From the sequence record OP172790: a stretch of DNA of 64,000 bases. One strand, given 5' to 3'. How positions within the stretch are numbered: position 1 is the stretch's first letter; the number at the start of each line of letters is the position of its first letter. Source of the DNA: Escherichia phage ECO319P1. The notes beneath the pieces are model-generated. The model saw only the letters and a list, made by a program, of their open reading frames with translations. It ran no database searches and had not been told where the DNA came from. Of the stretch, positions 14,707 to 15,141 are shown one piece after another. A program made the translations under genes and the position numbers.

Positions 14707-15141
14707 ATGAAAGAGTTTATGAACCCAAAAGCTGACCACGTATTCATTGCAACTTATGGCTCACTGCGTCGTAACATGCAGAACTTCCGAGTCAATGCAA
14801 GTGGTGGCGGTGAGTTCATCGGTATGGGTAAGACTGATGATAAATACAATCTGTATCGTTATTCAGGTTGTTATTTCCCAAGCGTCTCACTGAAACACAG
14901 CAGCAATGATAAGCAAGTTGTTGTGGATGTATTTGAAGCTCCGGTGGATGGCATGGAAGGGGCATATGATATGCTCGAAGGTTATCCGAGCTTCTACAAT
15001 CGCACTCAGATTCCGGTGACTCTGGAAGATGGTCGTAGCGTTATGGCGTGGATTTATCACATCGACACAGAACAATCTGAACTGATTGAATCTGGTGACT
15101 GGTGTGAACATAATGTCGAAGACTACTACAAATCACTGTAA
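14707..15141 (+). CDS. AIG2/gamma-glutamyl cyclotransferase-like protein
   Basis: N-terminal FIATYGSLRR and downstream EGYP...AWIYHID pattern typical of AIG2/GGCT fold. Confidence 0.6.
   Translation: MKEFMNPKADHVFIATYGSLRRNMQNFRVNASGGGEFIGMGKTDDKYNLYRYSGCYFPSVSLKHSSNDKQVVVDVFEAPVDGMEGAYDMLEGYPSFYNRTQIPVTLEDGRSVMAWIYHIDTEQSELIESGDWCEHNVEDYYKSL

What the first reader, a model, noticed from the sequence alone, without database searches (positions are those of the whole stretch)
14707..15141. AIG2/gamma-glutamyl-cyclotransferase-like gene 4 kb downstream of the ligase cluster
AIG2/GGCT-fold enzymes cleave gamma-glutamyl amide bonds. Finding one in the same early region as ATP-grasp and carboxylate-amine ligases suggests a matched synthesis and cleavage pair acting on a gamma-glutamyl-type conjugate.
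Basis: inference. Interest (0 to 1): 0.55.

Follow-up and report, generated by a model that had tools for sequence, protein, structure and literature searches.

The report
Phage gamma-glutamyl cyclotransferase tied to ligase cassette
The gene is a real, probably active gamma-glutamyl cyclotransferase belonging to a conserved phage cassette of amide-bond ligases; the association is already published, but what the cassette makes has never been tested.

Summary
Observation confirmed. ORF 14707-15141 (+, 144 aa) matches Pfam GGACT/AIG2-like (E 2e-17). It models at pLDDT 96.8 onto mouse and human gamma-glutamylamine cyclotransferase (TM 0.72). It keeps the YGSL motif and the catalytic Glu (E91 = GGACT E82).

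Interpretation supported, by comparative genomics only.
- Of 80 viral contigs found with this GGCT subfamily, 69 carry at least one cassette gene (ATP-grasp, class-II amidotransferase, Amidoligase_2, COOH-NH2 ligase) within 10 kb.
- The linkage survives at least five different gene orders.
- Nine distinct sequences in 15 loci fuse the amidotransferase domain to GGCT in one protein.
- All 41 complete cassettes examined have GGCT and/or a Peptidase_C26 gamma-glutamyl hydrolase on the same contig. The two tend to replace each other.

Most likely GGCT releases 5-oxoproline and a free amine from a gamma-glutamyl intermediate made by the cassette ligases, as BtrG does in butirosin biosynthesis. The substrate is unknown.

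Not novel. The protein is 98.6% identical to the annotated GGCT of Cronobacter phage GAP52. The GGCT-ligase operon was described for phiRIO-1, LUZ24 and phiEco32-type phages. I found no experimental test of its function.

The parts
14707..15141 (+). GGACT/AIG2-like gamma-glutamyl cyclotransferase (144 aa). YGSL at residues 17-20; catalytic Glu at E91.
   Evidence: Pfam E 2e-17; PHROG 2520; alignment to human GGACT and its E82Q mutant; AF2 plus Foldseek; residue conservation
4317..5114 (+). phiEco32-type COOH-NH2 ligase (GCS2-like carboxylate-amine ligase)
   Evidence: Pfam PF14395, 27.3 bits vs cutoff 25; PHROG 3815, E 3e-106; syntenic in all cassette types
5114..5692 (+). Conserved 192-aa cassette protein of unknown function ('h', PHROG 4877). 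Always lies between the COOH-NH2 ligase and Amidoligase_2 in the loci that have it.
   Evidence: PHROG 4877, E 1e-55; found in 31 loci; AF2 model unusable, pLDDT 61
5662..7173 (+). Amidoligase_2 (glutamine-synthetase-like amidoligase), 503 aa
   Evidence: Pfam PF12224, 23.6 bits vs cutoff 22; PHROGs 38711 and 7469
7233..9203 (+). Class-II (Ntn, Cys2) glutamine amidotransferase domain (about residues 1-240), followed by a roughly 400-aa extension with Ser-rich linker and three CxxC...CxxC motifs
   Evidence: Pfam GATase_6, E 1e-13; profile alignment to GlmS with Cys1/Arg73/Thr76/Asn98-Gly99 equivalents conserved; extension read from the translation
9205..9438 (+). Conserved 77-aa protein between the GAT-II and ATP-grasp genes; function unknown
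   Evidence: Homologs at the same position in 21 loci, including LUZ24-like, Kuravirus and 7-11-like phages
9714..10913 (+). RimK-like ATP-grasp ligase (core about residues 1-290) with a low-complexity linker and a small C-terminal domain
   Evidence: Pfam RimK, E 3e-6; NCBIfam MptN/RimK/Ddl hits, all below cutoff; profile hits to RimK, cyanophycin synthetase and Ddl structures
10898..14640 (+). Lineage-specific insertion between the ATP-grasp and GGCT genes; not part of the cassette. Contains hyp 10898-11143, Nudix 11152-11685, WYL 11685-11912, hyp 11917-12102, hyp 12102-12614, Rnl2 RNA ligase 12620-13585, hyp 13620-14228 and a DUF7448-like ORF 14284-14640.
   Evidence: Pfam. In Bruynoghevirus the GGCT start overlaps the ATP-grasp stop, with no insertion.
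15722..17521 (+). T7-type primase/helicase, the conserved downstream anchor of the window-type gene order
   Evidence: Pfam DnaB_C/Toprim_2; synteny

Best explanation
The ORF encodes a catalytically competent gamma-glutamyl(amine) cyclotransferase. It is an integral, though substitutable, component of a conserved early-gene cassette found in many podophages. The full cassette is COOH-NH2 ligase, unknown 'h' protein, Amidoligase_2, class-II Ntn amidotransferase, small protein, RimK-like ATP-grasp, then GGCT.

Proposed mechanism (inferred):
1. One or more of the ATP-dependent ligases builds an amide in which a glutamate is attached through its gamma-carboxyl. Its alpha-amino and alpha-carboxyl groups stay free.
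2. GGCT binds that free gamma-glutamyl head group through the YGSL loop.
3. Using Glu91 as general base, the alpha-amine attacks the gamma-amide.
4. This releases 5-oxoproline and the free amine.

The step would be either deprotection of a finished product or turnover of an intermediate. The logic matches BtrJ/BtrG in butirosin biosynthesis.

Shown: the fold, the motifs, the genomic linkage and the fusions, and expression of the Kuravirus ortholog.
Inferred: the chemistry, and that the substrate is made by the cassette.
Unknown: the identity of the amine. Candidates are a peptidoglycan-precursor peptide, a polyamine, an amino acid or a protein lysine.
For: Fold and active site.
- Pfam GGACT; AF2 pLDDT 96.8; Foldseek top hits GGACT, TM 0.72.
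- YGSL 17-20 and E91 align with GGACT Y7-L10 and E82.
- These residues are invariant in 36 close homologs.
- They are kept in 90-95 of 96 distinct domains across all loci.

Linkage.
- In Bruynoghevirus the GGCT start overlaps the ATP-grasp stop.
- The cassette plus GGCT occurs in Grimontviridae, Kuravirus, 7-11-like phages, Bruynoghevirus, Zobellviridae and PJNS034.
- 69 of 80 GGCT-seeded IMG/VR loci have at least one cassette gene within 10 kb; 41 have all four. Most of the rest are cut by contig ends.
- Gene orders differ: ChMNAG-P, NChMAG-P, G(6)NChMA-P, P..G(6)A(6)CNM, and M next to a fusion. Letter code as in the full report: G GGCT, A ATP-grasp, N GAT-II, M Amidoligase_2, C COOH-NH2 ligase, h the 192-aa unknown, 6 Peptidase_C26, P primase/helicase.

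Fusion.
- GAT-II(N)-GGCT(C) single ORFs occur in 15 loci as 9 distinct sequences, all keeping YGTL and Glu.
- The same fusion is present in GenBank phage records MW202828.1 and OQ984151.1 and in representative P0260.

Functional substitution.
- PA11 lacks GGCT but has a Peptidase_C26 gene, E 1e-16.
- Among 41 complete cassettes: 8 GGCT only, 25 C26 only, 7 both, 1 neither. That one has GGCT 16 kb downstream on the same contig.
- Fisher OR 0.035, p 5e-4, not corrected for phylogeny.

Shared substrate logic. The GAT-II domain keeps the GlmS residues that bind a free glutamine or gamma-glutamyl head group (residue roles from my own knowledge of GlmS).

Expression. SU10 gp78 (GGCT), gp82 (ATP-grasp) and gp85 (GAT) were all detected by mass spectrometry, and all lie in the early gene block (PMC4281155).

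Precedent. BtrG removes a protective gamma-glutamyl group in butirosin biosynthesis (bioRxiv 10.1101/2025.01.15.633182).
Against: - No biochemical or genetic data exist for any member of the cassette.
- GGCT is not universal. Only 19 of 80 ATP-grasp-seeded loci have it within 10 kb, so the cassette can work without it.
- All carriers are podophages that share a replication module. Much of the co-occurrence is therefore vertical inheritance, and my counts are neither de-replicated nor phylogeny-corrected.
- In the window 3.8 kb of unrelated genes separate GGCT from the ATP-grasp gene.
- RimK-type ATP-grasp enzymes usually make alpha-linked, not gamma-linked, glutamyl bonds. The ligase that makes the GGCT substrate may therefore be one of the GS/GCS2-like enzymes instead.
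Confidence: 0.6

Rival explanations
1. Peptidoglycan-precursor editing, the published hypothesis and a specific sub-case of the best explanation. The three ligases rebuild the unusual linkages of the stem peptide. GGCT and the amidotransferase cleave gamma-glutamyl bonds of host muropeptide precursors. Together they would alter the wall to block superinfection or prepare the cell for lysis.
For: - Proposed by Iyer 2009 and Hardies 2013, as relayed in PMC5498523, PMC11945000 and PMC10580990.
- The ATP-grasp profile also hits D-Ala-D-Ala ligases.
- The stem peptide contains a gamma-D-Glu-mDAP bond.
Against: - It has never been tested.
- I saw no N-terminal hydrophobic signal-like segment when reading the translations, so any action would have to be on cytoplasmic precursors. 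I ran no signal-peptide predictor.
- In the stem peptide the Glu alpha-amine is acylated by L-Ala. A cyclotransferase cannot use that without prior trimming.
- That Glu is the D isomer, whereas characterised GGCT and GGACT enzymes act on L-gamma-glutamyl substrates (own knowledge).
- No Mur-ligase or MurNAc-binding domains are present.
Confidence: 0.2
2. Stand-alone host-metabolism takeover. GGCT works independently of the ligases. It would degrade host gamma-glutamyl compounds such as glutathione, gamma-Glu-amino acids or gamma-glutamyl-polyamines, either to free amino acids and amines or to disturb redox balance.
For: - PHROG files it under 'moron, auxiliary metabolic gene and host takeover'.
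- A nitrogen-metabolism role was suggested for phage ZRK32 (PMC10945688).
- In the window the gene is separated from the ligases by 3.8 kb.
Against: - It is not ChaC-like: Foldseek gives only E 1e-3 and TM 0.53 to ChaC2, and there is no ChaC Pfam hit.
- Persistent linkage through rearrangements, fusion to the cassette's GAT-II domain, and replacement by C26 only within cassettes all argue for a cassette-bound role.
Confidence: 0.15
3. Non-catalytic GGCT-fold domain that only binds or scaffolds, as in the allophanate hydrolase C-terminal domain, the Paulinella crTP part 2, or E. coli YtfP, which lacks the catalytic Glu.
For: - There is a weak Pfam AH_C hit, E 0.0018, below cutoff.
- Allophanate hydrolase and crTP structures appear among the Foldseek hits.
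- SU10's ortholog was annotated as YtfP/UPF0131-like.
Against: - YGSL and the catalytic Glu are present and nearly invariant (92 of 96) across very divergent homologs.
- The known non-catalytic members have lost the Glu.
Confidence: 0.04
4. The cassette, including GGCT, makes a covalent DNA or protein modification, for example an amino-acid-type hypermodification. This would account for the unusual restriction resistance of phiEco32-type phages.
For: - Gordonclarkvirinae are reported as strikingly RM-resistant with no known modification pathway (PMC11990801).
- Relatives carry Nmad5 domains near the dCTP deaminase gene.
- The window's GAT-II protein has a long extension with zinc-ribbon-like motifs.
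Against: - The cassette contains no nucleic-acid-binding, glycosylase, kinase or transferase domain.
- The same cassette occurs in LUZ24-like and marine podophages, for which no such phenotype is reported.
- The conserved small proteins have no Pup-like or LysW-like C-terminal Glu or Gly.
Confidence: 0.05

Closest known systems
Annotated GGCT of Cronobacter phages GAP52 (NC_019402.1) and A24, PHROG 2520, and the 'gamma-glutamyl amide / peptidoglycan-modification operon' of phiRIO-1, LUZ24, PaP3, phiEco32, 7-11, PA11 and CW02 (Hardies 2013; Iyer 2009)
   Same: - 98.6% amino-acid identity to the GAP52 protein.
- Same gene order as A24.
- Same cassette members (COOH-NH2 ligase, Amidoligase_2, GAT-II, ATP-grasp, GGCT) upstream of the primase/helicase.
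   Different: - Nothing essential differs.
- The window phage is only about 84-86% identical in DNA to A24 and GAP52 over this region.
- It has a 3.8 kb insertion (Nudix, WYL, Rnl2) between the ATP-grasp and GGCT genes that LUZ24-type phages lack.
Mammalian gamma-glutamylamine cyclotransferase GGACT (PDB 3jub, 3juc, 1vkb)
   Same: - Best structural match: TM 0.72, E 6e-8.
- The YGSL loop and the catalytic Glu align.
- Similar size, about 145-150 aa.
   Different: - Only 24-25% identity, and phmmer E is 0.095.
- GGACT recycles free gamma-Glu-epsilon-Lys from cross-linked proteins and has no ligase partners.
- The substrate of the phage enzyme is unknown.
BtrG with BtrJ in butirosin biosynthesis (BtrG-like family; B. 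subtilis YkqA 2qik is the solved homolog)
   Same: - An AIG2-type cyclotransferase that removes a gamma-glutamyl group installed earlier in the same pathway by an ATP-grasp ligase. This is the same 'add then cyclise off' logic (BtrG role; BtrJ being an ATP-grasp is my own knowledge, Llewellyn 2007).
- YkqA is a significant Foldseek hit, E 1.4e-6.
   Different: - BtrG works on an ACP-derived aminoglycoside side chain inside a bacterial antibiotic cluster.
- The phage cassette has no carrier protein or aminoglycoside genes, and it has two additional GS/GCS2-like ligases plus an Ntn amidotransferase.
Gamma-glutamyl 'handle' pathways that pair a GS/GCS-like ligase with an amidotransferase-fold hydrolase: PuuA/PuuD (putrescine) and EgtA/EgtC (ergothioneine)
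   Same: - GS/GCS2-like ligase plus a class-I (Peptidase_C26) or class-II Ntn hydrolase acting on a gamma-glutamyl amide.
- C26 genes sit in many phage cassettes.
- There is a weak EgtC hit for the GAT-II protein.
   Different: - Those pathways use hydrolysis, not cyclotransfer, to remove Glu.
- No oxidase, methyltransferase or sulfoxide synthase genes are present here.
- The resemblance comes from my own knowledge plus sub-threshold hits.
Glutathione gamma-glutamyl cycle (GshA, GshB ATP-grasp, ChaC/GGCT)
   Same: A carboxylate-amine ligase, an ATP-grasp ligase and a gamma-glutamyl cyclotransferase occur together.
   Different: - The phage GGCT is not ChaC-like.
- The ATP-grasp is RimK/Ddl-like rather than GshB-like.
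- The extra Amidoligase_2, GAT-II and 'h' proteins have no counterpart in the cycle.

Membership tests
GGCT-like superfamily / Pfam PF06094 (GGACT, AIG2-like) | Profile score above the curated gathering threshold | tested here: met
   64.3 bits vs 22.8, E 2e-17, covering profile positions 3-119 of 120
GGCT-like superfamily / Pfam PF06094 (GGACT, AIG2-like) | Beta-barrel plus helix GGCT fold | tested here: met
   AF2 pLDDT 96.8. All 22 Foldseek hits at E <= 0.001 are GGCT-fold proteins; the best is 1vkb, TM 0.72.
GGCT-like superfamily / Pfam PF06094 (GGACT, AIG2-like) | YGSL substrate-binding motif at the beta1-beta2 loop | tested here: met
   Y17-G18-S19-L20 aligns with YGTL of human GGACT and is invariant in 36 homologs
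GGCT-like superfamily / Pfam PF06094 (GGACT, AIG2-like) | Catalytic glutamate (Glu82 of GGACT) at the end of the cavity helix | tested here: met
   E91 aligns with E82; the column is Q in the 3jud E82Q mutant. Conserved in 92 of 96 domains.
GGCT-like superfamily / Pfam PF06094 (GGACT, AIG2-like) | Cyclotransferase activity (5-oxoproline release) | not testable with these tools
   Needs an enzyme assay
GGACT sensu stricto (gamma-glutamylamine cyclotransferase) | Specificity for gamma-glutamyl-amines such as gamma-Glu-epsilon-Lys rather than gamma-Glu-alpha-amino acids | not testable with these tools
   GGACT is the closest structure, but identity is only 24-25% and phmmer E is 0.095. The sub-family assignment between GGACT and BtrG-like stays open.
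ChaC (glutathione-specific GGCT) | Sequence or profile match to ChaC, and close structural similarity | tested here: not met
   No ChaC family among the Pfam hits. ChaC/ChaC2 structures reach only E about 1e-3 and TM 0.51-0.53.
Phage amidoligase cassette ('gamma-glutamyl amide / peptidoglycan modification operon') | Co-directional cluster of COOH-NH2_lig (PF14395), Amidoligase_2 (PF12224), class-II GATase and RimK-like ATP-grasp among early/replication genes | tested here: met
   Window 4317-10913; syntenic with A24, LUZ24-type, CW02 and PJNS034
Phage amidoligase cassette ('gamma-glutamyl amide / peptidoglycan modification operon') | GGCT gene linked to the cassette | tested here: met
   The window GGCT lies 3.8 kb downstream on the same strand. 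69 of 80 GGCT loci are linked, several gene orders occur, and GAT-II-GGCT fusions exist.
Phage amidoligase cassette ('gamma-glutamyl amide / peptidoglycan modification operon') | Claimed function: modifies peptidoglycan or blocks superinfection | not testable with these tools
   I found only bioinformatic proposals in the literature

The most novel reading that the evidence does not exclude
The cassette is a self-contained phage pathway that uses glutamate as a removable handle. Ligases attach and extend it. GGCT or, interchangeably, a C26 hydrolase then takes it off. The product would be a gamma-glutamyl-derived metabolite or macromolecular modification not yet known in phage biology. The GAT-II-GGCT fusion plus Amidoligase_2 would be the minimal form of this pathway.
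Probability: 0.3. Interest if true: 0.7.

Novelty: already known. Interest (0 to 1): 0.3.

Why it matters
The cassette sits in several hundred sequenced podophages. These include genera used or proposed for therapy (Bruynoghevirus, Kuravirus) and many marine phages. It takes up 6-7 kb of compact genomes, yet its product is unknown about 15 years after it was first noticed.

GGCT gives a practical way in. 5-oxoproline release is easy to assay, and a catalytic-dead mutant should trap the natural substrate. The GGCT/C26 substitution and the GAT-II-GGCT fusion narrow the chemistry to an amide of a glutamate whose alpha-amino and alpha-carboxyl groups are free.

For this particular window the finding adds nothing new: it is an ortholog of an already annotated gene.

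Tried and rejected
- **Primary papers.** Iyer 2009 (PMC3268129) and Hardies 2013 (PMC3754069) are not held. I relied on papers that summarise them.
- **HMM contamination.** My first iterated GGCT HMM absorbed the GAT-II domain through the fusion proteins. I replaced it with a clean single-domain HMM from A2; the counts did not change.
- **'h' protein (5114-5692).** Only 11 close homologs were usable and the AF2 model reached pLDDT 61. No fold search was run.
- **COOH-NH2 ligase and Amidoligase_2 profiles.** No PDB sequence homologs.
- **Genome-contig scan.** Only 3 tiny contigs, probably phage contamination, found with a narrow pattern. No bacterial context was obtained.
- **PADLOC.** No hits for any cassette protein.
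- **CRISPRi-ART data on PTXU04.** Irrelevant: PTXU04 is a Xuquatrovirus without this cassette.
- **ORF after GGCT.** It is annotated as a second GGCT in phage HZ2201, but Pfam gives no support for it or for window 15163-15672.
- **ATP-grasp-GGCT fusion P0172.** The domains are convincing (hhalign 99.8%), but the contig has many fragmented genes. It may be a frameshift artefact, so I did not use it.
- **Small conserved proteins as Pup-like or LysW-like tags.** No conserved C-terminal Glu or Gly.
- **Promoter and terminator scan, 2000-18000.** Counts do not exceed the shuffles, so no transcription-unit boundaries could be called.
- **hypB versus its LUZ24-type positional counterpart.** No detectable similarity.
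Full report
**1. The observation**

The window carries an ATG-initiated ORF at 14707-15141 on the + strand (144 aa). 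An AGGA motif lies 8-11 nt upstream of the start.
- It matches Pfam PF06094 (GGACT, AIG2-like) at E 2e-17, 64.3 bits against a cutoff of 22.8, over almost the whole profile.
- It matches PHROG 2520 'gamma-glutamyl cyclotransferase' at E 1e-45.
- An AlphaFold2 model built from 36 homologs has mean pLDDT 96.8.
- Foldseek against the PDB returns only GGCT-fold proteins at E <= 0.001. The best are mouse and human gamma-glutamylamine cyclotransferase (1vkb, 3jub; TM about 0.72, E 6e-8). E. coli c4763, B. subtilis YkqA, the allophanate hydrolase C-terminal domain, human GGCT and, weakly, ChaC2 follow.

A recent structural survey names two features that define catalysis in this superfamily: the YGSL motif and the Glu equivalent to GGACT Glu82 (bioRxiv 10.1101/2025.01.15.633182). 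Both are present here.
- Y17-G18-S19-L20 aligns with YGTL of GGACT.
- E91 falls in the column that is E in 3jub and Q in the E82Q mutant 3jud.
- These residues are invariant in 36 close homologs.
- They are kept in 90-95 of 96 distinct domains from all loci I collected.

**2. Where the window comes from**

The region is 84-86% identical in DNA to Cronobacter phages A24 (Grimontviridae, Crifsvirus) and GAP52. The GGCT protein is 98.6% identical to the GAP52 ortholog, which RefSeq already annotates as gamma-glutamyl cyclotransferase. Gene order matches A24 gene for gene.

**3. The 'ligase cluster'**

Upstream, all on the + strand, lie:
- two weakly paralogous unknowns, 2476-3348 and 3360-4304;
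- a phiEco32-type COOH-NH2 ligase, 4317-5114 (PF14395);
- a conserved 192-aa unknown, 'h', 5114-5692;
- an Amidoligase_2, 5662-7173 (PF12224);
- a class-II Ntn glutamine amidotransferase, 7233-9203, starting MCG...;
- a conserved 77-aa protein, 9205-9438;
- a RimK-like ATP-grasp, 9714-10913.

Profile searches place the ATP-grasp nearest to RimK, cyanophycin synthetase, alpha-L-glutamate ligases and Ddl. The amidotransferase profile aligns to the GlmS glutaminase domain. The equivalents of Cys1, Arg73, Thr76 and Asn98-Gly99 are conserved. In GlmS these residues hold a glutamine with free alpha-amino and alpha-carboxyl groups (residue roles from my own knowledge). A GGCT needs the same head group.

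Between the ATP-grasp and GGCT genes the window has 3.8 kb of unrelated genes: Nudix, WYL, Rnl2 RNA ligase and others.

**4. Is GGCT really linked to the ligases?**

(a) Cultured phages. tblastn finds the GGCT in 259 records and the ATP-grasp in 312. The genus breakdown is nearly identical: Escherichia 93/93, Proteus 8/8, Salmonella 7/7, Cronobacter 6/6, Pseudomonas 101/120, Vibrio 7/22.

(b) Bruynoghevirus (Pseudomonas phage 'otherone'). The GGCT start overlaps the ATP-grasp stop. The order is COOH-NH2 ligase, h, amidoligase, GAT-II, small protein, ATP-grasp, GGCT, hypothetical, primase/helicase. This is the window's order without the insertion.

(c) GGCT-seeded IMG/VR scan (80 loci, not de-replicated). 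Letter code: G GGCT, A ATP-grasp, N GAT-II, M Amidoligase_2, C COOH-NH2 ligase, h the 192-aa unknown, 6 Peptidase_C26, P primase/helicase.
- 69 loci have at least one of the four cassette enzymes within 10 kb, and 41 have all four.
- Most of the 11 exceptions are cut by a contig end on the relevant side.
- The linkage survives rearrangement. The orders seen are ChMNAG-P (window type), NChMAG-P (CW02), G(6)NChMA-P (HP1 type, with GGCT at the far end), and P...G(6)A(6)CNM, plus a minimal form described in (d).

(d) Fusion proteins. In 15 loci, as 9 distinct sequences from many metagenomes, a single ORF of about 350 aa has the GAT-II domain at the N-terminus (MC...) and the GGCT domain at the C-terminus. 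It sits next to Amidoligase_2 only.
- Pfam confirms GGACT at E 2e-21. The GATase hits are weak: only GATase_4 in L037 reaches its cutoff (23.3 vs 23); GATase_6 in L046 and L037 falls below its cutoff, and L060 has no GATase hit.
- My cassette GAT-II profile matches all 15 fusion ORFs at E 1.8e-33 to 3e-56.
- All fusions keep YGTL and the catalytic Glu.
- The same fusion occurs in GenBank phage records MW202828.1 and OQ984151.1 and in representative P0260.

(e) The reverse direction (ATP-grasp-seeded, 80 loci). GGCT is present in only 19. A Peptidase_C26 / class-I amidotransferase gene is present in 39.
- PA11, which has the cassette but no GGCT, carries such a C26 gene (E 1e-16).
- Among 41 complete cassettes with at least 2.5 kb of flank on both sides: 8 have GGCT only, 25 C26 only, 7 both and 1 neither.
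- The single 'neither' (L093) is from the same contig as L016, where GGCT lies about 16 kb downstream.
- So every complete cassette has at least one enzyme of a kind that cleaves gamma-glutamyl amides, and the two kinds tend to replace each other (Fisher OR 0.035, p 5e-4).
- That test is not corrected for phylogeny or redundancy.

(f) Expression. In Kuravirus SU10 the GGCT ortholog (gp78, 'YtfP/UPF0131'), the ATP-grasp (gp82), the GAT (gp85) and gp86 were all detected by mass spectrometry. All lie in the early gene block (PMC4281155).

Caveat: all carriers are podophages that share a related replication module, so vertical inheritance explains part of the co-occurrence. The rearrangements, the fusion and the C26 substitution are the parts it does not explain.

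**5. Mechanism**

Shown:
- a GGCT-fold protein with an intact active site;
- persistent linkage to three ATP-dependent amide ligases and an Ntn amidotransferase;
- physical fusion to that amidotransferase in some phages;
- substitution by a gamma-glutamyl hydrolase-family protein in others.

Inferred: a cassette ligase makes an amide through the gamma-carboxyl of a glutamate whose alpha groups stay free. The GS/GCS2-like enzymes are the likelier candidates, because RimK-type ATP-grasps usually form alpha-linkages. GGCT then cyclises the glutamate to 5-oxoproline and releases the amine.

The closest functional precedent is BtrG, which removes a protective gamma-glutamyl group in butirosin biosynthesis. 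That group is installed by the ATP-grasp BtrJ (own knowledge). PuuA/PuuD and EgtA/EgtC follow the same 'glutamate as handle' logic, but with hydrolases (own knowledge; weak EgtC hit).

The amine is unknown. The published proposal is editing of peptidoglycan stem-peptide linkages to block superinfection or prepare lysis. That remains possible, but there are obstacles:
- The stem-peptide Glu is N-acylated and is the D isomer.
- I saw no N-terminal hydrophobic signal-like segment when reading the translations. I ran no predictor.

I rate 'GGCT works with the cassette on a gamma-glutamyl amide' at about 0.6. Rivals:
- the peptidoglycan sub-case, about 0.2;
- an independent host-metabolite role, about 0.15;
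- a DNA or protein modification role, about 0.05;
- a non-catalytic role, about 0.04.

**6. Comparison with what is known, and novelty**

The protein passes every testable membership criterion for the GGCT-like superfamily (PF06094). It is not ChaC-like. Within the superfamily, GGACT versus BtrG-like cannot be settled.

The gene is an ortholog of annotated genes. The cassette with its GGCT has been described before:
- as a seven-gene 'peptidoglycan modification cassette' conserved in RIO-1, phiEco32, 7-11, PA11, tf, MR299-2, LUZ24, PaP3 and CW02 (PMC5498523);
- again in 2025 for a LUZ24-like phage (PMC11945000).

I found no experimental study of it in four literature searches aimed at the cassette and its enzymes. 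The finding is therefore already known as a genomic association and open as biochemistry.

I could not read Hardies 2013. [quoted passage not shown] My quantification, the GAT-II-GGCT fusion and the GGCT/C26 complementarity may therefore be only partly new.

**7. Verdict**

It is not novel. Interest is low to moderate (0.3): it is an ordinary member of a known but functionally unsolved phage cassette.

Noticed in passing
IMG/VR loci L037, L046-L054, L057, L058, L060, L069, L070 (e.g. L046:9497-10546); GenBank MW202828.1 47708-48556 and OQ984151.1 20254-21045: Single ORFs of about 350 aa fuse a class-II Ntn amidotransferase domain (N-terminal MC...) to a GGACT domain. [quoted passage not shown] This may be a minimal form of the cassette.
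   Followed up: partly
L006 (Pseudomonas phage PA11) 432-1052; L007 (CW02) 235-882; many IMG/VR loci: Peptidase_C26 / class-I amidotransferase genes are frequent cassette members and tend to replace GGCT. All 41 complete cassettes examined had GGCT and/or C26. The window itself has no C26 gene.
   Followed up: partly
window 10898-14640, compared with L002, L010, L011 and L016/L093: The junction between the ATP-grasp and GGCT genes is an insertion hot-spot. The gap is 0 bp in Bruynoghevirus, 3.8 kb here (Nudix, WYL, Rnl2, DUF7448-like), about 8-9 kb in L010 and L011, and about 16 kb in contig IMGVR_UViG_3300033688_000039.
   Followed up: partly
window 7233-9203 (residues about 240-656 of the GAT-II protein): The amidotransferase has a roughly 400-aa C-terminal extension. 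It contains a Ser-rich low-complexity linker, an acidic stretch and three CxxC...CxxC zinc-ribbon-like motifs. The LUZ24-type and PA11-type orthologs are about 440-520 aa.
   Followed up: no
window 5114-5692: A conserved 192-aa cassette protein (PHROG 4877) has a recurring R-x-x-R-x-x-[KR]-[KRQ]-G motif and a Y-K-G-x-x-V-G motif. It matches no Pfam family, and the AF2 model was too poor to use (pLDDT 61).
   Followed up: partly
window 9205-9438: A 77-aa protein between the GAT-II and ATP-grasp genes is conserved at the same position in 21 loci. Its motif is V-x-R-K-x-P-M-[ST]...C-D-x-L-R...P-x-P. It has no conserved C-terminal Glu or Gly, so it is not an obvious Pup-like or LysW-like tag.
   Followed up: partly
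window 2476-3348 and 3360-4304: Two adjacent unknown proteins (290 and 314 aa) just upstream of the cassette are weak paralogs (24% identity, E 2e-5). LUZ24-type phages have two similarly sized unknowns in the same place, with no detectable similarity to these.
   Followed up: partly
window 28-594 and 654-1079: A TerD-domain protein (E 1e-11) and a SleB-type cell-wall hydrolase (Hydrolase_2, E 2e-18) lie at the start of the early region.
   Followed up: no
window 12620-13585 and 22483-23610: The phage appears to carry two RNA ligases of different families. One is an Rnl2 (Pfam RNA_ligase plus T4_Rnl2_C). The other is called RtcB only by synteny with the A24 annotation, plus a Nudix and a WYL protein nearby. 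Together this looks like an RNA-repair toolkit.
   Followed up: no
window 17518-18012 and 25805-27640: The DNA polymerase appears split into a small exonuclease-like part after the primase/helicase and a large part about 8 kb downstream. LUZ24-type phages are annotated the same way ('DNA polymerase part I / part II'). Here this rests only on the A24 and otherone annotations.
   Followed up: no
L172 8001-9119 (protein P0172; MAG contig JBBCBH010000890.1): One ORF joins a cassette-type ATP-grasp (hhalign 99.8%) to a GGCT domain. Neighbouring genes on this contig look fragmented, so this may be a frameshift artefact of two overlapping genes rather than a true fusion.
   Followed up: partly
window 14645-14672: An AT-rich imperfect inverted repeat (AAAGGGTTCTT TTT AAGAATCCTTT) sits in the 66-nt gap just upstream of the GGCT gene. 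Its function is unknown.
   Followed up: no
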